62,907 nucleotides of DNA from IMG/VR virus record IMGVR_UViG_3300048851_000073, positions 1 to 62,907 of that record. One strand, given 5' to 3'. Positions within the stretch are counted from its first letter, which is position 1. Each line of letters starts with the position of its first letter. The notes beneath the pieces were generated by a model. It made no database searches and was not told where the DNA came from. It worked only from the letters and a program-made list of their open reading frames with translations. This document shows positions 581-62,745 of the stretch, piece after piece. The translations under genes were made by a program, and so were the position numbers. Source of the DNA: a virus. Taxonomy: Duplodnaviria; Caudoviricetes.

Positions 581-655
581 GCGCGTATAGCTCAGCGGTA
601 GAGCTCTGGTCTTACACACCAGCGGTCGGGGGTTCAAATCCCTCTGCGCGCACCA
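581..655 (+). tRNA. tRNA-Val(TAC), integration target
   Basis: Acceptor GCGCGTA/TGCGCGC-A-CCA, D arm TAGCTCAGCGGTAGAGC, anticodon arm CTGGT-CTTACAC-ACCAG, T loop GGTTCAAATCC. Confidence 0.97.
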
Positions 656-656
656 G
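604..656 (+). repeat. attL core (53 bp, 3' part of tRNA-Val)
   Basis: CTCTGGTCTTACACACC...GCGCGCACCAG identical to 62693-62745. Confidence 0.96.
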
Positions 657-674
657 GTCAGAGGGGTTATTTCC

Positions 675-1925
675 TCAATTTGAGTCTTGATCAGGCGAAG
701 TTGTCACAGGAATTGTCACATCTCCCGATAACTCTGCGTCGTTGTCACGCCGGGTTGTCACGAGGCCGGCCATTGTGTTCGCTGCGGCGAGAAGCGCCTG
801 GGGTTGGTTATGCACGTACCGAGCCATCGTGAACGATGCGGTCGCGTGGCCAAGCCAAGCCGAAACGGTCGGTATTGGAACGCCATTGAGAATCATGAGG
901 GTGGCGCAGGTATGCCGCTCGTCGTGCAGATTGATCACAGTGACCTTCGCCCGCGTACACGCGGCCTTCCACCGGTCCGTGAAGTAGTCGGGGTAATACG
1001 GTCGCCCAAGCGCATCGACGAGCACGTAACCGCTGTCCTGGTACTTCGATCCGGCCTCGGCACGCTCACGACGTTGGACAGCGCGTGCATGGAGTAGTGA
1101 CGTGTACACAGGATCTGGGATGGGCAGCATCCGTTTGGAGCGTTCAGTTTTCGGCTCGCCGATGATGACCTTGCCGTCCGCGATCGTCCGCGTCCTTACT
1201 ATCTGCATAGTGTGAGCATCCATGTCGATGTGGTCCCAGCCGAGCCCAGCGAGCTCTTGCTTACGCAGGCCCAGTGTCCCGAGTTGGTGCTGATGTCCAT
1301 CGCGATCACTGGCAGTCACGTCGAGTACGCGTTGCAGCTCTTCAATCGTCAGCGTTGGTCGTTCTGTGCTGTCGAGCGCAGGTGTATCGACGAGGAGGGC
1401 GACGTTGCGGGGGAGATGTCCCTGATCCACTTCGCTCTTCAGCATGAGCCGGATAGACCCCAGGATGTTGCGACGTGATTGCCCGTTCGATGGCCGACGC
1501 TTCTTTTCGTTGGGTCGCGGGATGTCGCCAGTCTTCAACTTCGCCATCAAGGTATCGATGTGGAACTTCTTTAGATCCTGCACAGGCAGGTCTCCATACA
1601 GCGCAATGAGTGGCTTGAGGCGGTTCTGATGACCCGTGCGGGTTGTTTCCTTCCAGCCCGGTCGTCCAGTGATCCATTGGTTGCAAGCCTCTTTTACGGT
1701 GTCTGGACGCTTGGAAACGTACGTTCCAGCAGCGCGCTGAGCGATGATCGTTGCGAGCGCGTTTCGGGCTTCTAACTCGGTGTCATATCGCTTTCTGAGC
1801 TGCTTTCGATGTTCGGCGGAAGTGCCGACGTCCACCGTGAGTTGATACTTCGTGACAGGCCGGCCATTTCTACGGACCTTGAGACTGACGGCTTTGATCT
1901 GCGGTGGTAATTGCTGCCTAGGCAT
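675..1925 (-). CDS. int: Tyrosine integrase
   Basis: GLRKQEL (catalytic R), PKT, LHDERHT (HxxR), WLGH, TMARYVH (catalytic Y). Confidence 0.96.
   Translation of the reverse strand: MPRQQLPPQIKAVSLKVRRNGRPVTKYQLTVDVGTSAEHRKQLRKRYDTELEARNALATIIAQRAAGTYVSKRPDTVKEACNQWITGRPGWKETTRTGHQNRLKPLIALYGDLPVQDLKKFHIDTLMAKLKTGDIPRPNEKKRRPSNGQSRRNILGSIRLMLKSEVDQGHLPRNVALLVDTPALDSTERPTLTIEELQRVLDVTASDRDGHQHQLGTLGLRKQELAGLGWDHIDMDAHTMQIVRTRTIADGKVIIGEPKTERSKRMLPIPDPVYTSLLHARAVQRRERAEAGSKYQDSGYVLVDALGRPYYPDYFTDRWKAACTRAKVTVINLHDERHTCATLMILNGVPIPTVSAWLGHATASFTMARYVHNQPQALLAAANTMAGLVTTRRDNDAELSGDVTIPVTTSPDQDSN
697..761 (+). repeat. Probable integrase arm-type sites (TTGTCAC x4)
   Basis: TTGTCAC at 701, 713, 742, 755; same motif recurs near attR. 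Confidence 0.7.
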
Positions 1926-1999
1926 GGGAGACCTCCTGATAAGGTACCCATTTTACGCCGCCGATTTTATTGTTGCTCTTAGTCTGCATAGTCGCGTCC

Positions 2000-2287
2000 C
2001 TAGGTGTCCAACATATCCCAATCGTCACCCAGTATCCATCGGAGTGCAGACAGTTTCCCGTTGATCATTCCCCATTCGAAGTCGTCGTGAACGCCGAGGT
2101 TCTCTTTCGCAAGACGTGCTTCCACCTTCCGCATCGCGGTCGTCATCCCATCCATGATGTCTTCATGGGGCATTTCCTCGGTACCATCGTGGATGTTGGC
2201 AAGCATCACGAGCTTTCGCTCGTACCAAACGAAGTCGCTGAGCCACTGTTCCTCTGCTCGGATCTCCTTAATTGTTCGTTTTGTCAT
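2000..2287 (-). CDS. Hypothetical protein (WGMINGKLSALRWILG motif)
   Basis: ORF with strong SD (AGGAGGAG) upstream. Confidence 0.7.
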   Translation of the reverse strand: MTKRTIKEIRAEEQWLSDFVWYERKLVMLANIHDGTEEMPHEDIMDGMTTAMRKVEARLAKENLGVHDDFEWGMINGKLSALRWILGDDWDMLDT

Positions 2288-2476
2288 TTCTCCTCCTATT
2301 CCCAGTAGAAGGCCAATGCTTTATAGTAGAGCTATGGCCCCGCTGCAACCGGGGCTTTTTTAGTTGTATCTCTATTATGTCACAGACGACCATTTACTTA
2401 AATACCTAACTATGCCATTAATAGGACATGAATTAGCGTCCGCTATTCATCGTCCACACGAAAGTTGGTTAGTAAC

Positions 2477-2788
2477 ATGGGTTTTCGCAGCGTAAGGGTA
2501 AGCGACATCAGCGGGATCGAGTTGAACGAAAGCGAAGCAGTGAACGTGGTGATCCGGGATCACCCGAAGAGCGAGCCTCGGCAGTTCGATGCATCGCAGG
2601 AGGAACTGAAAGCGCTCAAGACGGTCGGCAATCTGGTGTCCTTGGAATACCGGTTTGCCGATGGCACGAGTCAGGATGTGTTCGTCACTGCGACCGAATT
2701 CGCAAAGCTCGTTCCTGACGACAAGCTGTCCGGTTTCGACGCCGTTCGCGGTCGCCGGAAAGGGTTCCGACCCGGCGTTGCCGAGTAA
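2477..2788 (+). CDS. Hypothetical protein; N-terminus weakly reminiscent of an Lsr2 dimerisation domain
   Basis: MGFRSVRVSDISG start; stand-alone gene followed by hairpins. Confidence 0.55.
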   Translation: MGFRSVRVSDISGIELNESEAVNVVIRDHPKSEPRQFDASQEELKALKTVGNLVSLEYRFADGTSQDVFVTATEFAKLVPDDKLSGFDAVRGRRKGFRPGVAE

Positions 2789-2886
2789 CCCACAGACAAC
2801 CACCTGTCCCAACTACCCAGTCCCGTTTCACCTTGAGGCCAAAAGCTTCGGTGAAACGGGACTGTTTCAAATTCCAGACATGAAAT

Positions 2887-2920
2887 GCCCCGCTACCTTT
2901 CGGTAGCGGGGTTTGTATTT
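2887..2920. terminator. Bidirectional terminator hairpin
   Basis: CCCCGCTACC-TTTC-GGTAGCGGGG between convergent genes; second hairpin at 2818-2864. Confidence 0.7.
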
Positions 2921-13435: not shown

Positions 13436-14272
13436 ATGGACCCTGTTCTAATCCCACCGCAAAGCACTGCCAATCCTGTTGCTAGCGCCATAGCCAAACT
13501 GGCGCTGACCTGCGTCAATCAACGCCCAGCGGCCGCAACTCAGTACCAGTACCTTAGTGGTATGAAACTTCTTCGCCGTGACGCTGACATACTGACTGGT
13601 GTGGCGGCGTTCGGGGCGCTCACGACGGCCCAGGTCCGCGCCCTGTACTTCCACGAACTCAAGTCTGATTCGCCCTGCACGACAGCACTCCGTCGCCTGG
13701 TCGCGGCAGGGATGCTGGCGAAGGTGACGATCCGGTTCCCCCTGAAGGATCGGGGTGCGCCGATGAGCTGCTTCCAGATCGGGCCGAACGGATGGAAGTC
13801 GTTCTACTCAAAACGGTTCACGCCGATCCGCGATCAGATGAAACTCATGCACACGCTGGCCGTCGCAGACGCGCATATCGCCACCGTCCAGTTGGAACGA
13901 GCGGGAGAGATAGAGATTCTGGAATACGCCAACGAGCCGGACACCTGGATTGAACTCGGTGGATCGGAGCTGCGGCCCGACATGTACCACGATCTGCATC
14001 TGATCAAGGCGAAGCAGAGGGTGGTTTACTGGATTGAGGTCGAGGAATCGAGAAAGTCACAACCGAAGTTAATTAAAAAGCTGCACGCCTATAAGCGCGC
14101 TGAACGCGATTCTGGTCGCTACCCCGGTGACAAGTTCCCGCAAGTGATGGTCTTGGCTACGACACCAGAGAGACTACGAGATATACGTTCAGCGCTGAAG
14201 AAGGCGAAGATGCCTGACGGGTATGTAGAAGTACACATGTTAGAGAGTTATCCACAGTTTTTACTGAGGTAA
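13436..14272 (+). CDS. Replication-relaxation (Replic_Relax-like) protein
   Basis: RDADIL..FGALTTAQVRALYF wHTH, HTLAVAD, LRPD, WIEVE PD-(D/E)xK-like core; true start may be 13562. Confidence 0.8.
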   Translation: MDPVLIPPQSTANPVASAIAKLALTCVNQRPAAATQYQYLSGMKLLRRDADILTGVAAFGALTTAQVRALYFHELKSDSPCTTALRRLVAAGMLAKVTIRFPLKDRGAPMSCFQIGPNGWKSFYSKRFTPIRDQMKLMHTLAVADAHIATVQLERAGEIEILEYANEPDTWIELGGSELRPDMYHDLHLIKAKQRVVYWIEVEESRKSQPKLIKKLHAYKRAERDSGRYPGDKFPQVMVLATTPERLRDIRSALKKAKMPDGYVEVHMLESYPQFLLR

Positions 14273-45431: not shown

Positions 45432-45490
45432 TCCGTACGCGCACAATAGAACGTCCATCTATCCACGATGGACGTTTTGTTTTATATTGA

Positions 45491-46069: not shown

Positions 46070-46070
46070 C

Positions 46071-47315: not shown

Positions 47316-47319
47316 ATAT

Positions 47320-48442: not shown

Positions 48443-48508
48443 ACCCTCATTGACTAAAGATTGCCCCCGTTGTTAAATGGGGGCAATTACTTTAATGGAG
48501 AACCATGA

Positions 48509-49080
48509 ATGACTTTGAATATTACTGCTGAGCGTCGCGTCGACATATCGGACTATGGCAAAGGTTGGGACAACTGCTACCTGACGGTCAAGTCAATGAA
48601 CCCGAAAGCTCTCAAGGACTGGCAGGAAATGGTCGAAGCAGAGCAGACCGGTGACGAGACGATCGATAGTCTTTATGCAGAGAAACTGAAGACCGTTCTA
48701 GTCGGTGGCGTTATCATGAACACGAACGATGACGGTGTTGCTGAACGATATACGATCGAACCAGAAGACATCGCTGATGTAGTTGAGGCGCTCGGACCTG
48801 TCTTTAAACAACGCGCTCTAATGGTCGCTGCAGGTACCTACGGTTTAAAAGGCCTCTAGCTGATATCGCTAGAGACATTGAGGACGTGATCGTCCGCGAT
48901 ATCCGAGCGACTATCGACCCTGAATTGTTGGATGCCATAGTTGCTGAGCGGTATAAGGATCGCCGGCACCTCAGTACACGTGAGTTCGACGATGAACCGT
49001 GGGAAGCTATTTGGATGGCAACCACTTTATGGGCGGCCGATGCTAAGCGTCAGGACAAAGATAACAAACCTCGGGCGTGA
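48509..49080 (+). CDS. Tail assembly chaperones G (48509-48859) and GT via -1 frameshift
   Basis: Slippery T TTA AAA at 48844-48850; -1 frame open to 49080; directly before tape measure. Confidence 0.82.
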
Positions 49081-49174
49081 CCGTATGGCCAGTAACTATC
49101 ATGCGTGTTAATTTAGAAATAGAAAGATAGGCCAGGCACCAGCCACTAAGTAGCCTTCTGAGATTTACCGCCTA

Positions 49175-51271
49175 GTGGCAAACAAGATCAATATCGTCAT
49201 CTCAGCGCAAGACAAAGCCTCGGCGGAACTGAAGAAGACCGAAGCAGGTCTGAAAGCATTCTCGCAAGGCGCGGATGAGTCTTCCCGTGCTTCGCGTGCG
49301 CTCGGGGTTGCCACGGATGTCGCCAAGGTCGGGCTACTTGCGACGGGCGCTGCAGCAGTGGCCGCAGGCAAGTTTGCCGTTACTGCCGCTGCCGGGTATG
49401 AGCAGTCCCTCAACATCTTTCGTTCGGTTTCCGGCGCGACTGCCGAGCAGATGGTTGCCGTGGGGGCTCGTTCGCGTGAGTTAGGGAAAGACCTATCACT
49501 GCCAGGAGTCAGCGCAGCTGACGCGGCGCTTGCCATGGTTGAGCTTGCCAAAGCCGGCCTCTCGGTCAACGACACTATGGCTGCGTCTAAAGGTGTTCTG
49601 TCACTCGCCAAAGCCGGTCAAATGGAGACGGCACAGGCAGCAGAGATAGCCGCCAATGCTCTCAATGCATTCGGTCTCAGGGGTAGCGAAGCGTCACGTG
49701 TGGCCGACATCTTGGCTGCAGCCGCCAATGCCTCGAGCGCGGACGTCACCGACCTGGCGCTGAGCCTCCAAATGTCGAGTGCTGGTGCTGCAGCAGTGAA
49801 GGTGCCGATCGACAATCTCGTCGCCTCCATCGGACTGATGGCGAACAACGGCATCAAGGGCTCAGACGCCGGTACGTCGCTCAAGACGATGTTCATGAAC
49901 CTCATCCCGCAAACCGACAAGCAGATCGCCTCATTCAGAAAGCTCAACCTCGACTTCTACAACGCCAAGGGCAATTTCGTCGGGATGCGCGAAATGATCC
50001 GCCAGCTCGAAGTTGGGACACGCAACCTCACCGATGAGCAGAAGGCCCAGCACATCGAGACCATCTTCGGTTCCGATTCCTCTCGTGCGGCGAACATCCT
50101 TCTGAAAGAGGGCGTCAAAGGCTATGACGAGATGACCAGAGCGGTCAACAAGAACGGCGCGGCAACTGCGCTGGCCGCTGCTCAGAACGCTGGCTTCAAG
50201 GGTGCGCTCGACGGGCTGAAGAGCACTATCGAGACGATCGCAATCGATGTCGGCATGAAAATGCTGCCAGGACTGACTGCACTAGCGACCAGCATCAATT
50301 CGCAGATCGAACCGTCGTTCAACCGGCTCGTGGCTGGAGGAAAGGCGGTGTGGGGCGTCGTCACCACAATCGCGGACGAGGTGGCCTTCCGACTCGGTCC
50401 CAAGTTCGAGTTTCTGTGGACGATCGTCTCCACGAACCTGATTCCAGCCTTCGCCCAGCTATATACCGCTGTTCTGCCGCTCCTCCCTGTGATCGGTGGA
50501 ACTCTGCTGGTTGCTGTAGGTCTCCTGGCAGACGGAGTGAATCTAGTGACGTTCGCGTTCTCTGGCTTGGTCGCACTGGCTGCAGTCTTGCTCCAGGGTC
50601 TCAGTGACGGCAACCCGATCGTGTGGACGCTGGCAGGCGCGTTCACCGGCCTTGGGGTTGCGATGGGCATCCACGCGATCATCAACACCGTGACGGCCGC
50701 GATGGCGGTGATGTCGGCGGTGACGATCCCTGCGTTGATCGCGAAAGTTGCGGCGCTCAATCTGATGGTCATGACGCCAATGGTCATGCCTGCCATCGCA
50801 ATTGGTGCTGCGCTCGCGGCCATCGCAGCGGTGTGGAACGCCTACAACGAGATGATGTCCGCCATCGAGGGGGCGAAGGCCTCACAAGCACGAAGCAACA
50901 AGGCCGGTGCTGACCTTCGGGCAACCGCCGATGCGTCGTTCAAGTCCGGCAAGATCGATCAGAAAGAGAAGGACCGCCTGTACAGCGTTTCGTTCAAGGC
51001 ACTCGGTACCAACTACGCAGAAGGTGGCGCGACCGTCGTAGGTGAGCACGGGCCTGAAATCGTGAATATGCCTCGTGGTGCACAGGTTACGCAGGCCTAC
51101 CGCAGTCGAAATGAACTCGGACAGGGGAGCGGCGGTGGAGTCACAGTACACATCACCGGTCCGGTTTCGTTCACCGACAACGCAGCGATCGACTACTTTG
51201 CGCAGCGTTTGAACCAGTCTGCTCGGCTGGCACGATCCGGAATGAGTAGCACGGTAGGAGCTGCAGCGTAA
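49175..51271 (+). CDS. Tape measure protein (TP901-type core)
   Basis: ELAKAGLS, GIKGSDAGTSLK, IFGSD, ALGTNYAEGG..VGEHGPE. Confidence 0.93.
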   Translation: MANKINIVISAQDKASAELKKTEAGLKAFSQGADESSRASRALGVATDVAKVGLLATGAAAVAAGKFAVTAAAGYEQSLNIFRSVSGATAEQMVAVGARSRELGKDLSLPGVSAADAALAMVELAKAGLSVNDTMAASKGVLSLAKAGQMETAQAAEIAANALNAFGLRGSEASRVADILAAAANASSADVTDLALSLQMSSAGAAAVKVPIDNLVASIGLMANNGIKGSDAGTSLKTMFMNLIPQTDKQIASFRKLNLDFYNAKGNFVGMREMIRQLEVGTRNLTDEQKAQHIETIFGSDSSRAANILLKEGVKGYDEMTRAVNKNGAATALAAAQNAGFKGALDGLKSTIETIAIDVGMKMLPGLTALATSINSQIEPSFNRLVAGGKAVWGVVTTIADEVAFRLGPKFEFLWTIVSTNLIPAFAQLYTAVLPLLPVIGGTLLVAVGLLADGVNLVTFAFSGLVALAAVLLQGLSDGNPIVWTLAGAFTGLGVAMGIHAIINTVTAAMAVMSAVTIPALIAKVAALNLMVMTPMVMPAIAIGAALAAIAAVWNAYNEMMSAIEGAKASQARSNKAGADLRATADASFKSGKIDQKEKDRLYSVSFKALGTNYAEGGATVVGEHGPEIVNMPRGAQVTQAYRSRNELGQGSGGGVTVHITGPVSFTDNAAIDYFAQRLNQSARLARSGMSSTVGAAA

Positions 51272-52044
51272 TGGCCGCTACTGCAGTTGCTTACGGCACT
51301 CTGAACATGCAGACAGAGAAGATCTGGGCGACGACCACGGATGTCTTCTCGGCCCCTGAGAACAACGTCCAGACAGATAACCTGGCGCAGTCAGACGGCG
51401 CGATATTCGTCCGTAGCTCGGTGAGGGCAAAGAGCTTTTCAGTCGCCGGCATCATCCGTGGAGACAGTATCGCTGACACGGACAGCTTGATCGATCAGTT
51501 CAAGATGGGACTTCGCCTGGCCCAGCAAAACTTCGACATCGCTTACGCCGGTTCGGTTCGAAGGTATGTCGCCAGTCCGCAGAACATCATGATCACCCGC
51601 GAACGCGGCCAGGCGACTGCTGGTTGGTCGGTACAGTTCATCTGCGCCAGTCCAGTTGGCATGGATACGAACTCATCCACCCTGCTCGCGGCAACGCCTG
51701 TCACCACTTCAACTGCGTCCATCCCGATCGCAGTGGGCGGTACGTACCAGGCAGAGCCGTACATCAAGGTGACTCTCACAGCAGTGACAGGCGGTACCTC
51801 GAAGACAATCACCATCACCAACACAACGACACTCCGCGGTATCAGAATCATCCGCACCTGGTCACCCGGCGATGTCCTGGAAATCGACAGCTTCAACAAG
51901 ACCGTCTACGTGAACAGTCAGGTCGTCATCTTCGACGGCCAGTTCCCGAAGTGGGATGTCGGATCACAGAACATCGGGTATCTCGACGACTTCACAACCC
52001 GCACGGCAAGCATCACCGCTGAGTACACCAGGCGGTGGTTGTAG
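51271..52044 (+). CDS. Distal tail protein (Dit-like)
   Basis: Follows TMP; GDVLEIDSFNKTVYVN. Confidence 0.75.
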   Translation: MAATAVAYGTLNMQTEKIWATTTDVFSAPENNVQTDNLAQSDGAIFVRSSVRAKSFSVAGIIRGDSIADTDSLIDQFKMGLRLAQQNFDIAYAGSVRRYVASPQNIMITRERGQATAGWSVQFICASPVGMDTNSSTLLAATPVTTSTASIPIAVGGTYQAEPYIKVTLTAVTGGTSKTITITNTTTLRGIRIIRTWSPGDVLEIDSFNKTVYVNSQVVIFDGQFPKWDVGSQNIGYLDDFTTRTASITAEYTRRWL

Positions 52045-52053
52045 GGGCGCGTC

Positions 52054-53931
52054 ATGCCGACCATAGTTGCCTACCCACTTAGCTCAAAAGACGACGCTCA
52101 GAAGCGCTTTGACAACAGTGCCGACTACAACGACTCATCCGGCACTCTGGTACTTGGTAAGAAGTTCGACGTCTCAGGACAGTCGATGACTGTAGGCATC
52201 CGGTTCCCCAACATCTCCATCCCACCCGGCGCCACGATCACGTCCGCCACACTCGCGTTGGTATCTCAGTACGAGAACCCAAGTACCGTCTCGCTTCGTG
52301 TCTTCGCCGAGAACACCGATAGTTCACTGCCCTTCTCCAGTTCAAACGATCCGGCGGACCGCCCACTCACCACTGCGTTCACTAACTGGGTGCCTGCAGC
52401 CGGTAGCAACTGGGTGGGGAGCGGTGTTTACAACAGCACCCCCGACATCGGCCCGCTGATCCAAGCTGTGGTCAACCGAGCCGGGTGGACTGCCGGCAAT
52501 GCGATCACGCTGATCATCAAGGACAACGGCTCGACGAATTACCAGGGACACTCAGCGGCGTCTGTTGATTCGGGGCCAACCACTGCTCCGAAACTGACGG
52601 TGACCTACTCAGTCGTAGCGCCTGTCACGGTGCAAACTTTCCAAACCGCGCCGAAGGAGTACCTGTACAAGGTCTCAAAACCAGACGGCACGTACGTCGG
52701 GGTCTGGAGCGATGTGACCGACGATCCCCAGTGGACTCAGCAGATCAATACCCCGGGGACGACAACCACTGTGTTTCTCGGACGTTCAGCGGACAACATG
52801 ATCGAGCGACGCGAGGCTTGGGTTGATCAGACCAACACTCGGTACGCCGATCAATCCGGCGAGGAGTACATGTTCGTCTCGCGCACCTCAAACACGGTCG
52901 GTCCCGATACCGACGTCGAGTACGGACTGAACGTCGACATCTATGCGGTGTACGGCGGGTACGAGCCCCTGGTTGATCAAAACGGGGTGCCTTACGCCGA
53001 CCAGACCGGTGACTCATACGTCGTTGCGACCGGCGCACCACTCGGCCAGCGCGTGTTCAGCGGAAAGATCAAAAGTTACAAGGCTGTCTACAAGGACAGG
53101 GAGGGCGTCGAGGTCTTGTTGGTGTCCCACGGCATCGAGCTGACAGAAGGCGAGCCGATCAAATCTGGCACCAGCACGACGGTTACGTACGCGACCACTC
53201 CGCTCGACACGATCGTCAAATCAATCCTTGACACCAATCCAGGCAAGATCACATACAACGCGGGATCGATTGACTACACGGGTGTTTCACCAACCTTGAA
53301 GTTCCAACTCAACACGAAGCTCGAAGGCATCAAGAGTGCCTTCACCCAGACACCTGAGGGTTTCTATTGGTACGTCGACATCGGCGAGAACGTGCTCTAC
53401 ATGAAACAGAACCAGCCCATCGTGAACCACGTCTTCATCAAGGGACGTCATCTGAGCGAAGTGAACATCGAGCGCTCGGGGGAGAACCTACGCAACCGGA
53501 TCTACTTTGTGGGCGGCGACACAGGCAGCGGTGTCCTCTACAAGGTCTACGAAGATGCTGCGGCCATCGCGGATTTTGGGCTGGCTACCTACCGAATTAC
53601 CGACCGACGCTTCACAGTGGCAGCCCATGCCCAGCGATACGCGCAGAAGGTTCTCTCGCGCTATGCACGCCCGGTCTACACCTCGACGATCACAGTGCCG
53701 TCCAGCGTGTACAACATCGAAGACATCAAGCTGGGGCACAACATCGCCTTCCGCAACTTCGGGAACTTCATCGATACACAGGTACTGCAGGCGGTCTCGA
53801 TCAGCTACACCCCATACGCCGTAACGATTCAACTCGGTGAAGTGCTCGATGATCAGAAGTCGATCATCGCTGACCTCGACGAGGGGCTGTCGAACGAACA
53901 ATACCAAGATATTCCAAACGCTCCATCGTAA
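52054..53931 (+). CDS. Tail tip/hub protein with N-terminal DNRLRE-like domain
   Basis: IRFPNISIPPGATITSATL..PKLTVTY; NRIYFVGG; position. Confidence 0.7.
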   Translation: MPTIVAYPLSSKDDAQKRFDNSADYNDSSGTLVLGKKFDVSGQSMTVGIRFPNISIPPGATITSATLALVSQYENPSTVSLRVFAENTDSSLPFSSSNDPADRPLTTAFTNWVPAAGSNWVGSGVYNSTPDIGPLIQAVVNRAGWTAGNAITLIIKDNGSTNYQGHSAASVDSGPTTAPKLTVTYSVVAPVTVQTFQTAPKEYLYKVSKPDGTYVGVWSDVTDDPQWTQQINTPGTTTTVFLGRSADNMIERREAWVDQTNTRYADQSGEEYMFVSRTSNTVGPDTDVEYGLNVDIYAVYGGYEPLVDQNGVPYADQTGDSYVVATGAPLGQRVFSGKIKSYKAVYKDREGVEVLLVSHGIELTEGEPIKSGTSTTVTYATTPLDTIVKSILDTNPGKITYNAGSIDYTGVSPTLKFQLNTKLEGIKSAFTQTPEGFYWYVDIGENVLYMKQNQPIVNHVFIKGRHLSEVNIERSGENLRNRIYFVGGDTGSGVLYKVYEDAAAIADFGLATYRITDRRFTVAAHAQRYAQKVLSRYARPVYTSTITVPSSVYNIEDIKLGHNIAFRNFGNFIDTQVLQAVSISYTPYAVTIQLGEVLDDQKSIIADLDEGLSNEQYQDIPNAPS

Positions 53932-57152: not shown

Positions 57153-57521
57153 ATGGCTGAGCGCCGCACAATTACGGTTGAGTACGTGGACGATCTCGAC
57201 GGCTCGGTCGTTGACGAAGCGGACGTCAGCACGGTCGCATTCAGCTACAAGGGCACGTCTTACGAAATAGATCTGAAGCCGGCCAACGCCAAGAAGCTCG
57301 ACGATGCGTTGAACAAGTATATTGCTGCTGCACGGAAGACTTCGAATGGCCGACGCGGTCGGGCAGCAAGCACTGCGACCCGCCCGTCCACTGGATCGGG
57401 ACGCAGCAAGGAAGAGCTGGCAGCGATACGTAGTTGGGCGATCGACGAGGGCTACGAGATCTCCCCGCGCGGCAGAATCAAAGCCGAGATTATTGAGGCG
57501 TACGACGCTGCGAGCAAGTAG
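57153..57521 (+). CDS. lsr2: Lsr2 nucleoid-associated protein
   Basis: VDDLDG, YEIDL, IRSWA..G..ISPRGRI. Confidence 0.95.
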   Translation: MAERRTITVEYVDDLDGSVVDEADVSTVAFSYKGTSYEIDLKPANAKKLDDALNKYIAAARKTSNGRRGRAASTATRPSTGSGRSKEELAAIRSWAIDEGYEISPRGRIKAEIIEAYDAASK

Positions 57522-58231: not shown

Positions 58232-60529
58232 TCATTGAGTGCCTCCCTGATCCTTCGGTTCGTATGGTGAGGGCCCGAAGTTCTTGGGCTGTGGATCGGA
58301 GCGCCGGGGTGTAACTCGACGCCGGCTGTTGATTTCGTCGCGCACGTCCTGGATGGGTCGGCCATAGGTGGATCGGGAGCGTGCGAGTACTGCGCTAGCA
58401 ACGCCAGTAGATGGAAGCGGAGCGAGTGCCTTCAATGTGACAGGCGGCGTCGTCTCCTTGCCAACCGTGAACGTTGCGATTGCTTCATACGAACGGATGC
58501 CAGTGAAGTCGGTCTCCTTTACTCGTTGATGCCCGCCGAACTCAGGTATCCATGTGCGAGCTTCCGTGGCCGACGTTTCGTAGATAATCCGTGAGCCCGT
58601 GTTGTTGATGATTGCGGTCTTCAGTTTCGAGTCAACCGTTTCCAAATACTGCGTCGCGAGCGTGACACCCAGCTTGTGCTTGCGTGCTCTGGCGAGCATG
58701 TCGTCAAGCCCGCCTTGGACTTTCGAACTGACCTGGAACTCGTCTAGATAAAGAAAGTTGGATCGCCTCGGAACGATGGCCTGAGCGTTGTTCCAAAGCG
58801 TCGACGTGAACAAGGATGCTAGCAGCTCTGACGACTCACTTGGAACATCGGCAAAGCTAACGAGTAGTATCTTGTTGTTCTCCAACACATCCCGCATGTT
58901 CAGTGTCGACTTGCTCTGGCCGATGATGTGTTTGATCTCAGGACGTCCCGACAGCTGCCACAATTTGTTGTGGAGAGGTTCAGAGTACCTGGCTGCAACT
59001 TGGCCTTTGCCATCATCAACACGATCCCAGAACTCTTCCAGCTCTGGCTCTTTCACCGAATCCTTCACCTTCTTGGCCCACGCTTTCTCTTCGGACGTTC
59101 GCGGGCTGATCAGTGTTGCGAGATCGACGAAGGTAAGACCACCGTACTCAATCAGTGTCCACAGTCCGTGATAGAGCAGATCTCGTACAGCGACCCCAGT
59201 TGACACGGATGGGTAGGTGGCGACGAAGACATCAGTGAACAGGTTCATAGCGTCACGTGCATCCACCTGATCAAATAGATTGTAAGCCAGTGGATTGTCT
59301 GGATCGCCAGCAATGTCAGCGACGATCACATCACCGATGCGCTCTGGGGGTACATAGCTGAGCACCCTACTGAAGAGGGTCTCGTTTGAACGGCTTCTGC
59401 TTGCGTCGATGACGATGACTCCGTGACCAGCCTTCATGTCTGCGGCCGCTTCATTCGCCATCTGCACGGTCTTTCCCCTACCCGTCTTCCCGCCGATGAA
59501 CGTGTGTAAAACGGCGTCCTCGAACGATTGGCTGATCGGACGTTCTCGTCCTGAGATGTTGCTATACCCAATCAGCCGGCCGCCGTTACGTGGGATTGCT
59601 TCGACGGGCGGGAACGGTCGCGCTGAACCTTGCTTTACTCCTTGTATCTGGGGGTCACCTATGGGCCACGCAACCACCGGAATTAGCTCTGGGACACTCA
59701 AATTGACATCGGACGCGACTGTCATTGCGCCGCGGTTCACCTGGTCGTCGAGGTTGTGTTGACGGATTGCCCTACTGTTGAACTTATTCCCAATGTTCTC
59801 GGAGCGCAGTGCACGAACTACATCTTCGACCAAGGCTTTGCCGCGTTGGGGCGACTCTGCTACTGCTGCGACGCGACCGACAGCGTTGAAGCTGCGTTCT
59901 TGCGCCTTCTCATCGATGACGTCGTCCATGGCTTTGTCGTTGACTCCGTAGACGACAGCGTTGAAGAGGCTCGATTTTTTCACAGCCTTGGTTGACAGGG
60001 ACTTGAAGTTGTTCGACCCCGTGATCACCCATTGCAACATGACTGTCTCGTCCGGGAAATCTGTTTGTACCGCCTTAAGCGTGCGCGTTGAATAATTAAT
60101 CGGGTTGCTGATTCGTAGCATCCGACCCGGGTCTGTCATGTGGAGTTGTACACCATACGTCCAGTCCAGGGGCACTCGTTTGATCGGTGTCAGGGTCGTG
60201 CCGGGGATGTGCGCATCCATCTGTCCCGCCAGGTACTCGGCGTCACGTGACGGAACATGTATCCGATGCTCGACACCACTGTTGTTGGCGACTGCTTCGA
60301 ACACGATAGTCGGTACACCGAGGAGTCGACCCATGGGTCCAGTGCGCAGATCTGGCCCGATTGAACGAAAGAATGCGTCGACCTTCTCGGGTCGCAGGTC
60401 GGTTGCGAAGATGATTGAGTAGCTGACGTGATCCGCGTCGTGCCCGCGCTGGGACTTGGTTTTTACCATGAGAATTACCCCAAAAATGAAGGGGGAGAGG
60501 GTGCCAAGCATGAACAGCAGATAGAACAT
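58232..60529 (-). CDS. VirD4/TraD/TrwB-like coupling ATPase with N-terminal TM
   Basis: HTFIGGKTGRGKT, VIVID, FLYLDEFQ, ARARKHKLGVTLATQYL. Confidence 0.85.
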   Translation of the reverse strand: MFYLLFMLGTLSPFIFGVILMVKTKSQRGHDADHVSYSIIFATDLRPEKVDAFFRSIGPDLRTGPMGRLLGVPTIVFEAVANNSGVEHRIHVPSRDAEYLAGQMDAHIPGTTLTPIKRVPLDWTYGVQLHMTDPGRMLRISNPINYSTRTLKAVQTDFPDETVMLQWVITGSNNFKSLSTKAVKKSSLFNAVVYGVNDKAMDDVIDEKAQERSFNAVGRVAAVAESPQRGKALVEDVVRALRSENIGNKFNSRAIRQHNLDDQVNRGAMTVASDVNLSVPELIPVVAWPIGDPQIQGVKQGSARPFPPVEAIPRNGGRLIGYSNISGRERPISQSFEDAVLHTFIGGKTGRGKTVQMANEAAADMKAGHGVIVIDASRSRSNETLFSRVLSYVPPERIGDVIVADIAGDPDNPLAYNLFDQVDARDAMNLFTDVFVATYPSVSTGVAVRDLLYHGLWTLIEYGGLTFVDLATLISPRTSEEKAWAKKVKDSVKEPELEEFWDRVDDGKGQVAARYSEPLHNKLWQLSGRPEIKHIIGQSKSTLNMRDVLENNKILLVSFADVPSESSELLASLFTSTLWNNAQAIVPRRSNFLYLDEFQVSSKVQGGLDDMLARARKHKLGVTLATQYLETVDSKLKTAIINNTGSRIIYETSATEARTWIPEFGGHQRVKETDFTGIRSYEAIATFTVGKETTPPVTLKALAPLPSTGVASAVLARSRSTYGRPIQDVRDEINSRRRVTPRRSDPQPKNFGPSPYEPKDQGGTQ

Positions 60530-60579: not shown

Positions 60580-60768
60580 TCAGCGGTTACGAATGGCGTT
60601 CGCCCTCTTGCCGATGAAGTAGATGACCGCGAGGATCGAGACCGCGATCAGGACGATCTGGATGAACCCGAAGTACGGTGCCAGGACCGCGATCAGAATC
60701 TGAGCGACGATGACCAGGAACAGAAGCGACCAGGCGAGGTTGGCGATGGTCTTGGGTGCTCTTTTCAT
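60580..60768 (-). CDS. Small 2-TM protein
   Basis: Hydrophobic; directly upstream of the ATPase. Confidence 0.6.
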   Translation of the reverse strand: MKRAPKTIANLAWSLLFLVIVAQILIAVLAPYFGFIQIVLIAVSILAVIYFIGKRANAIRNR

Positions 60769-61313
60769 TTCGATACTCCTTGTTGCCGTTGAACCGCCCT
60801 GACGACGGCTTCGAGGTGGCCCAGCTCGACGGACTCTCGGATGAACTGGGCTTGGTTTGGCAAGAACTGCCGGGTGAGCGCTTGCGCCATGACTTGGCCG
60901 GCGAAATCAGCGTGCAATATCTTGTAGGCCAGGTCGCCAGGCATGAGACCGTAGCGGACCATGTCACTGACGTGGATGCGGGAGACTTGTATCTCATCGG
61001 CGAGCTCAAAAGTCAGGCCAGCGAGCACGTGCGTGCAGTCGTGGTAGAACCGCAGGGCGTGTATGTGCCCTGGATCTGGATACGGAACGTCCTCTGCATT
61101 GGTCGATGAGACGGGCAGCGGATGACCCGTCAGCCGTGATGAACCGAACGCGGCTTCGAGTTCGAGGTACGTATTCGGTGCAGTCTCGGTGGGGGTGTAC
61201 GTGAAGCCGAGCTGTGCAGTCATCTTGCCCGCATGGTCAAACAGAAACTGTCCTGCGATCTCGAGTGCCTGGTTGTACAGCTCGTTGCGAATAGGCATAG
61301 TAGGTTGCGACAT
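60765..61313 (-). CDS. Hypothetical protein (LRFYHDCTH motif)
   Basis: SD AAGGA; coupled to next gene. Confidence 0.6.
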   Translation of the reverse strand: MSQPTMPIRNELYNQALEIAGQFLFDHAGKMTAQLGFTYTPTETAPNTYLELEAAFGSSRLTGHPLPVSSTNAEDVPYPDPGHIHALRFYHDCTHVLAGLTFELADEIQVSRIHVSDMVRYGLMPGDLAYKILHADFAGQVMAQALTRQFLPNQAQFIRESVELGHLEAVVRAVQRQQGVSK

Positions 61314-61449: not shown

Positions 61450-61656
61450 CTACTGGTTCCAGAAGCGGGTCAACGCTTCCCGGTTGAGCTGCCCATCGAC
61501 GCGCCCCCGGCGGATCGCTTCTTCGCGACGCTTGACCTCCTGCCGACGTGCCAGGCCGGGGATGTTCGTTCCCCGAACCACTGCGTAGAGCTTGAGTGCG
61601 ATCAGACCAAGCCACAGCGGCGAGGTCAGGATCGCGAGCAAGATGACGATTTCCAT
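61450..61656 (-). CDS. Small membrane protein
   Basis: N-terminal TM. Confidence 0.5.
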   Translation of the reverse strand: MEIVILLAILTSPLWLGLIALKLYAVVRGTNIPGLARRQEVKRREEAIRRGRVDGQLNREALTRFWNQ

Positions 61657-61662
61657 GACGAA

Positions 61663-61851
61663 CTACCTTTCCCAGTGGGACTCTTCCTCCCAGATTTCTT
61701 CCTCGATGAACACAACTTCGTGTTCGCTCACCTGGACCTGGCGGCGTACGACCCGCCGCGACCTGGTGTTCGCCTGGCTACCTAGCTCCAGACCCATTTG
61801 ATACGCAGCCAACTCGCCTGCGCTCCGTTGCCTTGATCGGCGTTCTGACAT
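61663..61851 (-). CDS. Hypothetical protein
   Basis: SD AGGAGG; first gene of leftward operon. Confidence 0.55.
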   Translation of the reverse strand: MSERRSRQRSAGELAAYQMGLELGSQANTRSRRVVRRQVQVSEHEVVFIEEEIWEEESHWER

Positions 61852-61880
61852 CTACGTGACCTCCTGGTCCGCTACACTCA

Positions 61881-61944
61881 ACCTCTAGAGGTAGATTCCC
61901 GTAGAGGTGAATACCCGTAGTGGTAAAAACCTCTAGAGGTGAAT
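61881..61944. promoter_or_regulatory. Four tandem 16-bp repeats, two containing the palindrome ACCTCTAGAGGT (putative operators)
   Basis: Units at 61881, 61897, 61913, 61929 in a divergent intergenic gap. Confidence 0.7.
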
Positions 61945-62017
61945 GTAGTGTCCGAGTATGGGGACGGTAGAACGTCTTGTCAACCGAAGCAGCAAATCTC
62001 AAATGAAAGGCCAGGTC

Positions 62018-62584
62018 ATGATGGCGACGAAGTTCCCCGAAGATCCTGAGTACATCGTCAACCTGGCGAAGGAGATACAAGCGCTCGCGGCTGGTGATCC
62101 GCTGTCGATTGAGAAGGTCGGCCGTCACTACGCCCAGCCAGACCCGTCAGATCCGCAGAAGCTAATTGTCGATCTAGCCGCGATGCAACGAGTCTGGGGA
62201 ACGAGCGTCTCTTCGCACGCTGAGGTGTACGACCTGATCAAGATCACCGCCGGGATGTTGCCCGACGACGACAGCGACGTGGAGGCAATCAAAAATGCGC
62301 TCGGACTGTACGTTTCATTCTTCGATGGCTTTCCCAACCTGACCGCCAGGCGTGCGCAACTCCTTTCGAGGGTCGAGATCACGATGCGCTCACTACAAGA
62401 CAGGGAGACCCGTGGTGCGCGGCTGCTTGCTCGTCAGATCACGATCATCCGGAAGCAGCGGCCTGAGGTCTTTGAGGCGGAAAACTTGAAGCGGCGAGTG
62501 GAAAATCTGGAATACCGGATGCAGGATCTCGAACGGCAGGTAGAGCGGCTTGAGTCGAACAACAGCAACAAGAGGCGTTGGTGA
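62018..62584 (+). CDS. Putative regulator (HTH-like segment plus C-terminal coiled coil)
   Basis: NLTARRAQL..ITMRSLQDRE; divergent from the ATPase operon. Confidence 0.5.
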   Translation: MMATKFPEDPEYIVNLAKEIQALAAGDPLSIEKVGRHYAQPDPSDPQKLIVDLAAMQRVWGTSVSSHAEVYDLIKITAGMLPDDDSDVEAIKNALGLYVSFFDGFPNLTARRAQLLSRVEITMRSLQDRETRGARLLARQITIIRKQRPEVFEAENLKRRVENLEYRMQDLERQVERLESNNSNKRRW

Positions 62585-62617
62585 AGTTGTCACAAAGCTG
62601 TCACATGTGCCGTGACA
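62583..62617 (+). repeat. Probable integrase arm-type sites near attR
   Basis: GAAGTTGTCACA identical to 697-708, plus CTGTCAC and inverted GTGACA. Confidence 0.7.
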
Positions 62618-62692
62618 CACCTAGATACTAAACGACCCCCGTTGACTGAACATGCAGGTCAGAGACTTGCGATTCGGCCAACAGGGGTCATT

Positions 62693-62745
62693 CTCTGGTC
62701 TTACACACCAGCGGTCGGGGGTTCAAATCCCTCTGCGCGCACCAG
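62693..62745 (+). repeat. attR core (53 bp)
   Basis: Identical to 604-656. Confidence 0.96.

What the first reader, a model, noticed from the sequence alone, without database searches (positions are those of the whole stretch)
604..62745. Virion-encoding prophage that also carries a minimal DNA-transfer kit (relaxase-like + coupling ATPase + ArdC)
Seen: one att-bounded element holds a complete siphovirus morphogenesis set plus a Replic_Relax-like gene (13436-14272), a membrane-anchored VirD4/TraD-like ATPase with small TM genes (58232-61851) and an ArdC-like gene (21442-22254). Known: these families normally occur in plasmids, ICEs and IMEs. No VirB4 or mating-pair genes are visible. Inference: this is a phage-IME hybrid that may spread both in particles and by cell-contact DNA transfer, or that uses the relaxase-like protein for replication. 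In the excised circle the ATPase operon, its regulator, attP and int are contiguous, as in an integrative element fused to a phage.
Basis: partly seen in the sequence, partly recalled or inferred. Interest (0 to 1): 0.85.

Follow-up and report, generated by a model that had tools for sequence, protein, structure and literature searches.

The report
Prophage carrying a conjugation-type DNA module
A complete tailed prophage of a soil actinobacterium also carries the DNA-nicking enzyme, membrane ATPase and small membrane proteins that form the backbone of small mobilisable islands, so it may have a second, particle-free way to move or copy its DNA, though nothing of that has been tested.

Summary
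A 53-nt repeat of the tRNA-Val 3' end (604-656 / 62693-62745) bounds one CheckV-complete siphovirus-type prophage. It has a tyrosine integrase, a Replic_Relax/MOBC-type gene (13436-14272), a coupling-protein-like ATPase (58232-60529) behind two small membrane-protein genes, and an ArdC-like gene (21442-22254).

New here: in Actinomycetes the order [1-TM]-[2-TM]-ATPase-Replic_Relax-[ArdA or HTH+ImmA]-serine recombinase is the fixed backbone of small integrative elements. Replic_Relax lay directly downstream of the ATPase at 22 of 22 places in 14 genomes. In a small phage lineage the two genes are separated, yet both occur in 6 of 9 records; the other three are fragments. Their trees split the same way, so the pair was inherited together.

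The "phage-IME hybrid" reading is supported as ancestry. Transfer by cell contact, or replication by nicking, remains inference. No mating-pore genes were found and the host genome is not held.

The kind is not new. MobC-type relaxase plus VirD4-like ATPase operons were described in Bacillus phages in 2012 and remain unexplained. This scan has also noted similar modules on other DNA. I rate it a new variant of a known kind, of moderate to high interest.

The parts
581..656 (+). tRNA-Val(TAC) with the attL core (604-656)
   Evidence: ARAGORN; repeat; exact 53 nt
675..1925 (-). Tyrosine integrase
   Evidence: Phage_integrase 2.8e-18. Related integrases follow the ATPase-Replic_Relax pair in L007 and L017
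13231..13435 (.). Divergent early control region just upstream of the Replic_Relax gene. It holds TTATCCACA at 13390-13398 and a one-mismatch copy at 13416-13424
   Evidence: The same type of region precedes the gene in all 6 phage-type relatives, and 3 of those 6 have an exact box
13436..14272 (+). Replic_Relax / MOBC-type protein: winged-helix domain plus PD-(D/E)XK-like nuclease domain
   Evidence: PF13814 at 49.9 bits; phrog_9381 'replication initiation by nicking' 1.4e-6. Keeps the invariant residues R48, D49, H139, E167, P181, D182, E201. Model pLDDT 80.3, with only weak wHTH and nuclease fold matches
21442..22254 (+). ArdC-like protein: ssDNA-binding N-domain plus HExxH metalloprotease
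   Evidence: Homologs with PF08401/PF18818; phrog_7245 anti-restriction 0.0015. Present in G003, G007 and G008
28844..53931 (+). Packaging, head and tail genes of a siphovirus type, interrupted by several opposite-strand or unknown genes
   Evidence: PHROG hits
57153..57521 (+). Lsr2-like nucleoid protein, the conserved neighbour of the ATPase in phage-type relatives
   Evidence: phrog_1223 1.5e-33. Beside the ATPase in L002 and L024-L028
57831..58136 (-). 101-aa gene downstream of the ATPase; no family, no TM
58232..60529 (-). Membrane-anchored DUF8128 + coupling-protein-like ATPase (765 aa)
   Evidence: TrwB_AAD_bind; phrog_5156 2.6e-39. Profile against PDB: DotL 3e-11, TrwB 7e-8. Model pLDDT 83.3. 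TrwB Z 28.9, VirB4 C-domain Z 29.6. N-domain matches DUF8128 clusters. Walker A G347-K353 and D596-E597 are invariant
60580..60768 (-). 62-aa protein with two TM helices, directly upstream of the ATPase
   Evidence: A like gene is in 15 of 26 related loci
60765..61313 (-). 182-aa soluble protein of unknown function in the ATPase operon
   Evidence: phrog_7806 3.7e-9. Homolog directly upstream of the ATPase in L026
61450..61656 (-). 68-aa protein: one N-terminal TM, then a charged helix
   Evidence: A like gene is upstream of the ATPase in related loci
61663..61851 (-). 62-aa first ORF of the ATPase operon; no TM
61880..61983 (-). Promoter-like site (TTGACA-17-CATACT, 61983-61955) followed by three copies of a CACCTCTAGAGG-like word (61880-61941) in the operon leader
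   Evidence: The word count over the whole window is not above chance; only the clustering is notable
61958..62584 (+). 208-aa divergent gene between the ATPase operon and attR. It has a coiled-coil-like tail and no family
   Evidence: Homolog at the same place in L027
62693..62745 (+). attR core

Best explanation
What it is. This is one temperate siphovirus-type prophage in tRNA-Val. At some point its lineage took over the backbone DNA-processing and translocation module of a family of small serine-recombinase integrative elements of Actinomycetes. The module has four parts: a MOBC-type (Replic_Relax) winged-helix/PD-(D/E)XK nuclease, a DUF8128 + coupling-protein-like ATPase, and two small membrane proteins. 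An ArdC-like anti-restriction protein travels with them.

Layout. In the small elements the genes are contiguous. In the phage lineage the nuclease gene has moved to the head of the rightward early operon. The ATPase operon sits between the Lsr2-like gene and attR, so in the excised circle it is next to attP and int.

Likely working (inferred). After induction the nuclease binds and nicks phage DNA in or near the early control region. This starts strand displacement, which can serve rolling-circle replication, since the phage has no other recognisable initiator. The membrane ATPase with its two TM partners takes the processed DNA to the membrane. Passage to a neighbour cell would need a pore, either from a co-resident conjugative element or formed by the module itself. 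ArdC would protect the incoming strand.

Shown: homology, synteny, co-occurrence, co-divergence, intact motifs.

Inferred: nicking, replication role, translocation, transfer.

My odds:
- The pair is an inherited, selected IME-type module: about 0.85.
- The two proteins still work together in the phage: about 0.55.
- The phage genome really transfers by cell contact: about 0.3.
For: (1) Family. PF13814 scores 49.9 bits. PF13814 is the family that CONJscan calls MobC, and in streptococcal IMEs it is paired with a VirD4 coupling protein and a serine integrase (PMC5357655, passages). MOBC relaxases are PD-(D/E)XK enzymes with a winged helix (PMC12857230 and PMC3424549, passages).

(2) ATPase. TrwB_AAD_bind is above its cut-off. 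More distant homologs also carry PF02534 and PF12696. The best PDB sequence matches are DotL and TrwB. TrwB aligns over 382 residues at Z 28.9.

(3) Adjacency. Replic_Relax lies directly downstream of the ATPase in 10 of 23 genome loci. It does so at 22 of 22 ATPase places in 14 Actinomycetes genomes. In 10 of 10 fetched regions the order is [MT-A70]-ATPase-RR-[ArdA]-[HTH-ImmA]-serine recombinase, with no virion-gene match.

(4) Phage lineage. The ATPase sits beside Lsr2-like and tail genes in L002 and L024-L028. Replic_Relax is in the same record in 6 of 9: G000, G003, G005, G006:C15, G007:C5 and G008. The other three are fragments estimated at 27, 64 and 47% complete. Two of the records that hold both genes have direct terminal repeats.

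(5) Co-divergence. Both trees give the same strongly supported split. For the ATPase, 8 phage-type rows plus L003 stand against 21 others, SH-aLRT 100. For RR, 6 phage-type rows plus L003 form a clade at 100/100. Sub-clades match. The Mantel r is 0.585, and 0 of 2000 permutations were as high.

(6) Rarity. By tblastn against 50,697 GenBank phage records, RR found 0 records, the ATPase 4, and the ArdC-like protein 1.

(7) Small TM genes are conserved upstream of the ATPase in 15 of 26 loci.

(8) An independent soil metagenome holds the same right arm up to the att core at 99% identity or more.
Against: - The two genes are about 44 kb apart in the prophage (about 15 kb in the circle), on opposite strands and in different operons.
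- The window's Replic_Relax has a long branch of 1.59-1.79. It differs at three nearly invariant positions: D203 is E, and T206/E207 are R/K.
- No VirB4 or pore genes were found in the element. The host genome is not held.
- The ATPase fails the curated TraD/VirB4 NCBIfam cut-offs, about 25 bits against 366-647.
- Its fold ties with the VirB4 C-domain (Z 29.6), DndH-C (29.3) and HerA (25.4). It also hits the PADLOC mad8 model at 1.3e-12.
- The N-terminal TM is present in only 27 of 64 family rows.
- In Bacillus phage 0305phi8-36, deleting the analogous operon gave no growth defect, and no function has been shown (PMC3357382, passages).
- No covalent DNA intermediate was observed for the MOBC prototype TraX (PMC12857230, passages), so how such DNA would be piloted is unclear.
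Confidence: 0.55

Rival explanations
1. The two genes now have separate jobs. Replic_Relax is the phage's replication initiator or early regulator only. The ATPase operon is an unrelated lysogenic-conversion or exclusion cassette, for example one that blocks or pumps out incoming DNA. Both are leftovers of one capture event, kept for different reasons.
For: RR heads the rightward early operon beside TTATCCACA sites in the window and in 2 more of the 6 phage-type relatives. No other initiator, helicase or primase was recognised. There is a phrog_9381 'replication initiation by nicking' hit. The ATPase operon has its own promoter-like site and leader repeats. It lies in the att-proximal slot next to an Lsr2-like gene. 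The genes are physically separated in every phage-type record.
Against: Both genes were retained in 6 of 9 records down to 33-36% ATPase identity and 28-30% RR identity, with matching trees. They are adjacent at 22 of 22 places outside phages. Co-inheritance within one phage lineage can, however, give this pattern without joint function.
Confidence: 0.27
2. The ATPase plus PD-(D/E)XK nuclease, with a methyltransferase in some islands, is a defence system of the HerA-nuclease / MAD7-MAD8 type. It is carried as cargo by islands and phages and is not a transfer module.
For: PADLOC mad8 hit at 1.3e-12. MAD7-MAD8 is described as an ATPase-nuclease module (PMC13662399, passages). HerA-nuclease defence complexes score Z 20-25 against the model. 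An MT-A70 methyltransferase lies upstream in L006-L008, L017, G163 and G296_b.
Against: The pair is the invariant backbone next to the recombinase in 10 of 10 fetched regions, not variable cargo. Anti-restriction ArdA and ImmR/ImmA-like genes lie inside the same string. Sequence profiles favour the T4CP families PF10412, PF02534 and PF12696. Membrane partners are conserved. PF13814 is treated as a relaxase family in print (PMC5357655). No other MADS component was hit among the 10 proteins scanned.
Confidence: 0.13
3. The window is two independent elements in tandem, or an assembly chimera of a phage and an island.
For: Gene content is mosaic. The integrase is a tyrosine type, whereas relatives use serine recombinases.
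Against: There are only two att cores. The same gene set recurs in two DTR-bounded viral records and in a Kocuria prophage. Contig depth is flat across 43000-62255 at 16.2-18.9 in X1, and a second sample holds the same right arm.
Confidence: 0.03

Closest known systems
DNA translocation operon of Bacillus phage 0305phi8-36 and its homologs in SPO1, GBSV1, BV1 and Gamma-like phages (Pathria et al. 2012, PMC3357382; passages read)
   Same: A tailed phage carries a CloDF13-MobC-type relaxase, a VirD4-like ATPase and membrane proteins. In the temperate members the module lies next to integration genes. The function is unknown, and the authors noted that only this relaxase family turns up in phages.
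   Different: Those are Bacillota phages with the genes in one operon. Here the host is an actinobacterium and the relaxase gene is detached from the ATPase operon. The ATPase has a DUF8128 N-domain and an ArdC-like gene is present. tblastn of the window ATPase found only SP-10-like Bacillus phages at about 23% identity.
Streptococcal IME_Class_8: VirD4 coupling protein, PF13814/MobC relaxase, serine integrase (Coluzzi et al. 2017, PMC5357655; passages read)
   Same: Same three families in the same compact order as in the actinobacterial islands found here. These are the nearest relatives of the phage genes.
   Different: IMEs encode no virion. The window has a tyrosine integrase and a full morphogenesis set, and its pair is split.
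CloDF13 MobB/MobC, a mobilisable plasmid that brings its own coupling protein (PMC11389934 and PMC3357382, passages)
   Same: A MOBC relaxase comes with a dedicated coupling ATPase and no mating pore, so transfer depends on a helper.
   Different: It is a small enterobacterial plasmid. I made no direct sequence comparison with MobB or MobC here.
pAD1 TraX, prototype MOBC relaxase (PMC12857230, passages)
   Same: Winged helix plus a restriction-endonuclease-like catalytic domain. It binds direct repeats at a distance from nic.
   Different: No sequence or structure of TraX was compared here. Which residues of the window protein are catalytic is inferred only from family invariance.
Replic_Relax + FtsK/SpoIIIE + TrbC/VirB2-like cassette of Bacillus siphoviruses such as Novomoskovsk and Bolokhovo (PMC9658697, passages)
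   Same: Replic_Relax occurs with a DNA-pump ATPase and a small pilin-like membrane protein in phage genomes.
   Different: The ATPase there is FtsK/SpoIIIE-type, and the authors read it as a remnant of plasmid replication or segregation.
HerA-nuclease and MADS MAD7-MAD8 defence modules (PMC13662399, passages)
   Same: An ATPase of the same superfamily paired with a nuclease.
   Different: Those modules are not described as membrane-anchored (recalled, not checked here). They are not backbone genes next to a recombinase, and they have no PF13814 partner.

Membership tests
MOBC relaxase (Replic_Relax, PF13814) | Match to PF13814 above the gathering score | tested here: met
   49.9 bits against 25.3, residues 54-229; 50.7 bits in the genome search
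MOBC relaxase (Replic_Relax, PF13814) | N-terminal winged helix plus C-terminal PD-(D/E)XK fold | tested here: inconclusive
   Model pLDDT 80.3. Foldseek gives only E >= 1.2e-3 matches to VanR/MarR/PadR and to FokI, XisH, Can2, EndoMS and BstEII. No MOBC structure appeared among the matches
MOBC relaxase (Replic_Relax, PF13814) | Family-invariant acidic and histidine residues kept | tested here: met
   R48, D49, H139, E167, P181, D182 and E201 are invariant in 11 sequences and present in the window. The nearly invariant D203 is E, and T206/E207 are R/K. That these residues are catalytic is assumed, not tested
MOBC relaxase (Replic_Relax, PF13814) | Site-specific nicking at an oriT and requirement for transfer | not testable with these tools
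   Needs biochemistry and genetics
Type IV coupling protein (VirD4/TrwB) | T4CP sequence profile above threshold | tested here: met
   PF10412 at 27.9 bits against 20.5. 27 of 37 homolog clusters carry PF10412, and some also PF02534 or PF12696. The curated NCBIfam TraD and VirB4 models are far below cut-off
Type IV coupling protein (VirD4/TrwB) | Walker A and B motifs intact | tested here: met
   G347, G350, G352, K353 and D596, E597 are invariant in 17 sequences
Type IV coupling protein (VirD4/TrwB) | Fold with an all-alpha domain inserted in the nucleotide-binding domain, nearest to TrwB | tested here: inconclusive
   Helices at 424-536 lie between the Walker motifs. TrwB scores Z 28.9 over 382 residues, but the VirB4 C-domain at Z 29.6 and DndH-C at Z 29.3 tie with it
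Type IV coupling protein (VirD4/TrwB) | N-terminal membrane anchor | tested here: met
   Residues 4-22, KD 2.35. Only 27 of 64 family rows have one
Type IV coupling protein (VirD4/TrwB) | Works with a T4SS (VirB4 and pore genes) in the same element or cell | tested here: not met
   None was found in the element. The host genome is not held. A VirB4 search in 5 related host genomes gave only sub-cut-off hits, in 3 of them
ArdC anti-restriction protein | ArdcN (PF08401) ssDNA-binding domain and a C-terminal HExxH metalloprotease (PF18818) | tested here: inconclusive
   The window protein has no Pfam hit at E <= 0.01. Homologs at 55-65% identity carry PF08401 and/or PF18818 and ArdC names. An HExxH motif is present. 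PDB sequence search gave 0 matches
Integrative mobilisable element (IME) | Integrase and att sites, own relaxase, no mating pore, and no virion genes | tested here: not met
   The first three features hold, but a full virion set is present. It is a phage with an IME-type module, not an IME
Temperate siphovirus prophage | att-bounded, with integrase, terminase, portal, capsid, tape measure and distal tail protein, and no sheath | tested here: met
   CheckV 100%
MADS / HerA-nuclease defence system | Full gene set of the system (eight mad genes) or a HerA partner nuclease family | tested here: not met
   Only mad8 was hit, by the ATPase alone, among 10 proteins scanned. The eight-gene make-up is from PMC13662399 (passages)

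The most novel reading that the evidence does not exclude
The four-gene set (1-TM protein, 2-TM protein, DUF8128 + coupling-type ATPase, MOBC nuclease) is a self-sufficient minimal DNA-transfer machine of single-membrane Actinomycetes and their relatives, with no VirB4 and no classical mating pore. It drives the spread of a widespread family of small integrative elements that lie next to tRNA or tmRNA genes. A lineage of temperate siphoviruses has adopted it. These phages would then have two routes between cells: virions, and capsid-free contact-dependent transfer that does not depend on the phage receptor.
Probability: 0.12. Interest if true: 0.9.

Novelty: new variant of a known kind. Interest (0 to 1): 0.6.

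Why it matters
If the module works, a temperate phage could reach cells that lack its receptor, or spread without killing the donor. That would blur the line between transduction and conjugation and change how phage host range is estimated from receptors.

Without any function shown, two results stand. First, the MOBC nuclease and the coupling-type ATPase have stayed together and co-diverged for a long time, even after being separated on a phage genome. Second, the same pair is the backbone of an apparently undescribed family of small integrative elements. Matches were present in 40 of 401 sampled Actinomycetes genomes, at full length in about 14.

This gives the unexplained 2012 observation in Bacillus phages a second, independent lineage. 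Related copies appear to sit in cultured hosts. The names given by sources point to Rhodococcus and Streptomyces isolates, and to a Kocuria genome. So the question can be tested at the bench.

Tried and rejected
Searches and tools that led nowhere:
- Megablast of the right arm against GenBank phages gave no match.
- PDB sequence searches for the ArdC-like protein and for Replic_Relax gave 0 matches and one chance-level match.
- The last Pfam scan, of the two small TM proteins and eight small early genes, gave nothing at E <= 0.05.
- Complex prediction of the ATPase (25-741) with Replic_Relax (39-278) returned 'no answer' (score 0.00, mark 0.32). This is no evidence either way.
- The VirB4 (TIGR00929) search in 5 genomes that hold relatives gave only sub-cut-off hits, in 3 of them. 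Inconclusive.
- The look-up of sequencing runs listed no RNA holder, so expression could not be examined.
- Read laying used contigs only. It could not show an attP joint, because the two att sites are more than 20 kb apart. The loose ends at 62693 and 62745 are equally explained by attL or an empty attB.
- I looked for repeats that would delimit five serine-recombinase islands. There was no exact repeat of 14 nt or more, so their sizes are unknown.
- The word-based homolog search with the window's Replic_Relax found only 3 clusters. I could not show that the Rhodococcus record holding the ATPase and ArdC-like homologs also has it.
- The paper search for 'DUF8128' found 0 papers.
- I found no paper showing contact-dependent transfer by a MOBC/T4CP module of a tailed phage in the searches. 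Subscription journals are not covered.
- Supplementary files were not opened. Those of PMC5357655 and PMC3424549 may list members and residues that bear on the family assignment.

Errors and weak points of my own:
- I first wrote in my notes that the small genes upstream of the ATPase have no TM segment. Searches showed that this came from my ORF picking, and I corrected it.
- In the second Replic_Relax tree one row (G265_C2) was badly extracted and has a branch of 4.0. It was left in the tree and in the Mantel test.
- L030/G009 matched over only 54 residues at 29% identity. I left it out of the co-occurrence count and out of the tree.
- L029 is a partial ATPase and was left out of the ATPase trees.

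Rejected readings:
- Packaging ATPase: the phrog_2666 terminase hit at 9.3e-6 covers only the P-loop region, and a separate TerS/TerL pair exists.
- FtsK/TraB-type AICE translocase: FtsK scores lower both by profile (3.5e-5 against 3e-11 for DotL) and by fold (Z 19 against 29).

Full report
**What is there**

The window is itself a viral record of 62,907 bases, rated complete by CheckV, so no host genome could be searched. tRNA-Val(TAC) lies at 581-655. Its 3' part is repeated: 604-656 equals 62693-62745 exactly, 53 nt. A 32-nt part of this core occurs only twice at up to three mismatches. There is therefore one att-bounded element and no internal att.

Next to attL lies a tyrosine integrase.

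The left arm, on the minus strand, holds:
- an Erf-type annealing protein
- an AAA ATPase and a serine invertase.

The right arm holds:
- an RNA-repair trio and an HNH gene
- TerS, TerL, portal and a MuF-like protein
- prohead protease, major capsid, adaptor and neck proteins
- a tail protein, tape measure and Dit, then an Lsr2-like gene.

The Lsr2-like gene and the best homologs (Rhodococcus, Streptomyces, Arthrobacter) point to an actinobacterial host.

**The three flagged genes**

13436-14272 matches Replic_Relax (PF13814) at 49.9 bits, against a cut-off of 25.3.

58232-60529 matches TrwB_AAD_bind at 27.9 bits, against a cut-off of 20.5. It also matches a phage family of unknown function, phrog_5156, at 2.6e-39. 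It has one N-terminal TM helix and intact Walker motifs. A profile of 17 homologs finds DotL (3e-11) and TrwB (7e-8) ahead of FtsK in the PDB.

The AlphaFold model (pLDDT 83.3) aligns with TrwB over 382 residues at Z 28.9. The VirB4 C-domain (Z 29.6) and DndH-C (Z 29.3) tie with it, and HerA follows at Z 25.4. The fold therefore places the protein in the superfamily but does not pick a family. The N-terminal 300 residues correspond to DUF8128. In the ESM Atlas this domain is joined to TrwB_AAD_bind, DUF87 or TraG-D_C domains in clusters from several phyla. No paper in the library mentions it.

21442-22254 has no Pfam hit of its own. Homologs at 55-65% identity carry the ArdC N-domain and/or the PolyVal metalloprotease domain and ArdC names. 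An HExxH motif is present in the sequence.

Upstream of the ATPase on the same strand lie a 62-aa gene with two TM helices and a 68-aa gene with one. I had first missed them.

**Where the pair comes from**

I fetched 23 loci from species-representative genomes and 7 from IMG/VR with the ATPase profile. I then compared all their ORFs.

In 10 of the 23 genome loci a Replic_Relax gene lies directly downstream of the ATPase. Pfam on representatives of the conserved neighbours gave:
- an MT-A70 methyltransferase upstream
- ArdA, or an HTH plus ImmA/IrrE pair, downstream
- then a large serine recombinase.

A sample of 401 genomes of the class around the Kocuria genome gave 40 with a match at E <= 1e-40. 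In the 14 genomes with the most complete matches, PF13814 was found in 14 of 14. By coordinates it lies within 500 bases downstream of the ATPase at 22 of 22 listed places.

I fetched about 38 kb around ten of these places. All ten show ATPase, Replic_Relax, optional ArdA or HTH-ImmA, then serine recombinase. None matched a virion gene of the window or of four related phages at E <= 1e-6.

A 1-TM plus 2-TM pair of small ORFs precedes the ATPase in most loci. A 2-TM ORF was found in 15 of 26.

This is the architecture published for streptococcal IME_Class_8: VirD4 coupling protein, PF13814/MobC relaxase, serine integrase (PMC5357655, passages). PF13814 is the MOBC relaxase family, related to PD-(D/E)XK restriction enzymes (PMC3424549 and PMC12857230, passages).

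**The phage lineage**

In L002 (a Kocuria genome) and in the viral contigs L024-L028, the ATPase lies beside an Lsr2-like gene. In L002, L026 and L029, homologs of the window's tail genes follow on that side, as in the window. A serine recombinase lies on the other side in L002 and L024-L027.

Replic_Relax is on the same record in 6 of 9 phage-type records:
- the window
- G003 (direct terminal repeats, 100% complete)
- G008 (direct terminal repeats)
- G005
- G006 contig 15, a 49-kb phage-like contig, 25 kb from the ATPase
- G007 contig 5, about 30 kb from the ATPase.

In G006 and G007 it is the only PF13814 match in the whole genome. The three records without it are fragments estimated at 27, 64 and 47% complete.

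The ArdC-like gene is present in 4 of 6 records: the window plus 3 of the 5 relatives searched.

In all six records Replic_Relax is the first rightward gene after a similar divergent control region.

By tblastn against 50,697 GenBank phage records the three proteins found 0, 4 and 1 records. Plasmids hold only distant matches to the ATPase domain.

**Co-divergence**

The ATPase tree puts the 8 phage-type rows plus one island (L003, Kribbella, inserted beside a cut comM gene) on one side of a branch with SH-aLRT 100. The 21 island rows lie on the other side.

The Replic_Relax tree gives the same split, at 100/100 and 100, and the same sub-groups. Pairwise identities of the two proteins correlate (r 0.585, n = 24 elements), and 0 of 2000 permutations were as high. 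The roots are unknown, so I cannot say which context is ancestral.

The window's Replic_Relax sits on a long branch and has changed three nearly invariant positions. It keeps the invariant ones.

**How it most likely works, and the rivals**

The simplest reading is that the module still does in the phage what it does in the islands: it processes the element's own DNA at a specific site and takes it to the membrane.

For the nuclease, a role in starting replication fits three observations: its position, the neighbouring TTATCCACA sites (4 exact copies, all between 13.39 and 18.62 kb), and the lack of any other recognisable initiator.

Whether the ATPase then exports DNA to another cell is open. 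No pore genes are present, and the host's other elements are unknown.

The rivals are:
- the two genes now have separate jobs
- the pair is a HerA-nuclease-like defence module, supported by the PADLOC mad8 hit, by the description of MAD7-MAD8 as an ATPase-nuclease module (PMC13662399), and by the HerA fold scores
- the window is a tandem of two elements or an assembly chimera, which the data argue against.

Against the defence reading, the pair is the fixed backbone next to the recombinase rather than variable cargo, and anti-restriction and ImmR/ImmA-like genes are interleaved with it.

**What is known already**

Pathria et al. (2012, PMC3357382, passages) described a CloDF13-MobC-type relaxase, a VirD4-like ATPase and membrane proteins as a 'DNA translocation operon' in Bacillus phage 0305phi8-36. 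They reported homologs in SPO1 and, next to integration genes, in Gamma-like temperate phages. Deleting the operon had no effect on growth in the laboratory. The authors remarked that no other relaxase family is found in phages.

Later papers note Replic_Relax with FtsK/SpoIIIE and a VirB2-like gene in Bacillus siphoviruses (PMC9658697, passages).

In E. coli only 6 of 222 phage-plasmids carry conjugation-related elements (PMC10123127, passages).

Earlier notes of this scan list similar modules on other DNA. They are unchecked leads. The kind is therefore known and unexplained.

Three things are new here:
- an actinobacterial phage lineage with the pair split
- the tie to a family of islands that I did not find described in the searches listed under Tried and rejected
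- evidence that the two genes have been inherited together.

**Other data**

Two soil metagenomes hold the right arm at 89-99% of sampled words. Contigs of the second, independent sample cover capsid, tail and ATPase genes and the junction up to the att core at 99% identity or more. Depth on the host flank is about twice (X1) to about four to five times (X2) that on the prophage, so only part of the host population seems lysogenic.

Noticed in passing
window 16005-18577: Three overlapping genes: a nucleotidyltransferase (phrog_388), an Rnl1-type RNA ligase (phrog_562, 6.5e-62) and a polynucleotide kinase (phrog_505, 1e-90). This looks like an RNA-repair kit, probably against anticodon nucleases.
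   Followed up: no
window 13390, 14248, 15910, 18614 and 14280-18674: There are four exact TTATCCACA (DnaA-box-like) sites, against about 0.5 expected, all in early intergenic regions. Each lies beside a copy of a 42-nt promoter-like repeat (family D1). An exact box also precedes the Replic_Relax gene in L026 and L034.
   Followed up: partly
window 36129-39326: A 1065-aa pectate-lyase / beta-helix protein (PF12708 at 27.9 bits, just above its 27-bit cut-off; PF13229 at 24.5 bits, just below its 25.9-bit cut-off) lies between the MuF-like head gene and the prohead protease, not in the tail module.
   Followed up: no
window 26970-27953 (-): An opposite-strand gene with a peptidoglycan transglycosylase domain (PF00912, 5.9e-29) sits just before the packaging genes.
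   Followed up: no
window 28168-28896, 31349-32032, 32105-32833: Three genes of no known family are inserted around the terminase and portal genes, and two of them have an N-terminal TM helix. TerL is only 402 aa.
   Followed up: no
L009 14849-14923; L099 6574-6649; L087 6214-6297; L085 7454-7817; L083 7027-7102: The serine-recombinase islands that carry the ATPase-Replic_Relax pair end at, or overlap, a tRNA or tmRNA gene. Two of them use tRNA-Val(TAC), the window's own target. A homolog of the window's flank gene 3-485 lies just beyond the recombinase in G233, G302 and L009. No long att repeat was found.
   Followed up: partly
window 62256-62907 against 43000-62255: Contig depth on the host flank is 38.8 in X1 and 27.8-35.6 in X2, against about 17 and about 7 on the prophage. 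Loose ends at 62693 carry the 5' half of the tRNA. This suggests that many cells of the host population have an empty site.
   Followed up: no
L003 6391-8770: In Kribbella the ATPase-Replic_Relax island lies next to dprA and a shortened comM-like gene (256 aa, Mg_chelatase C-terminal part). It also carries a GDSL-lipase-domain protein and a SIR2-like protein.
   Followed up: no
L004 and L005 (one contig, 1816209-1856245): One Acidimicrobiia genome has two copies of the module about 18 kb apart on the same contig. Several Actinomycetes genomes have two ATPase places and up to four PF13814 matches.
   Followed up: no
L038 (G008:C1:37036-37764): The ArdC-like gene of this related viral record has a TAA inside the match. 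It may be broken there.
   Followed up: no
L012, L013, L018-L022: Bacteroidota loci hold a roughly 1000-aa ATPase of the same superfamily (PF10412, PF02534, DUF87, PF12696). It comes with a conserved 160-190-aa upstream gene of no family, often a second shorter ATPase, and no Replic_Relax.
   Followed up: no
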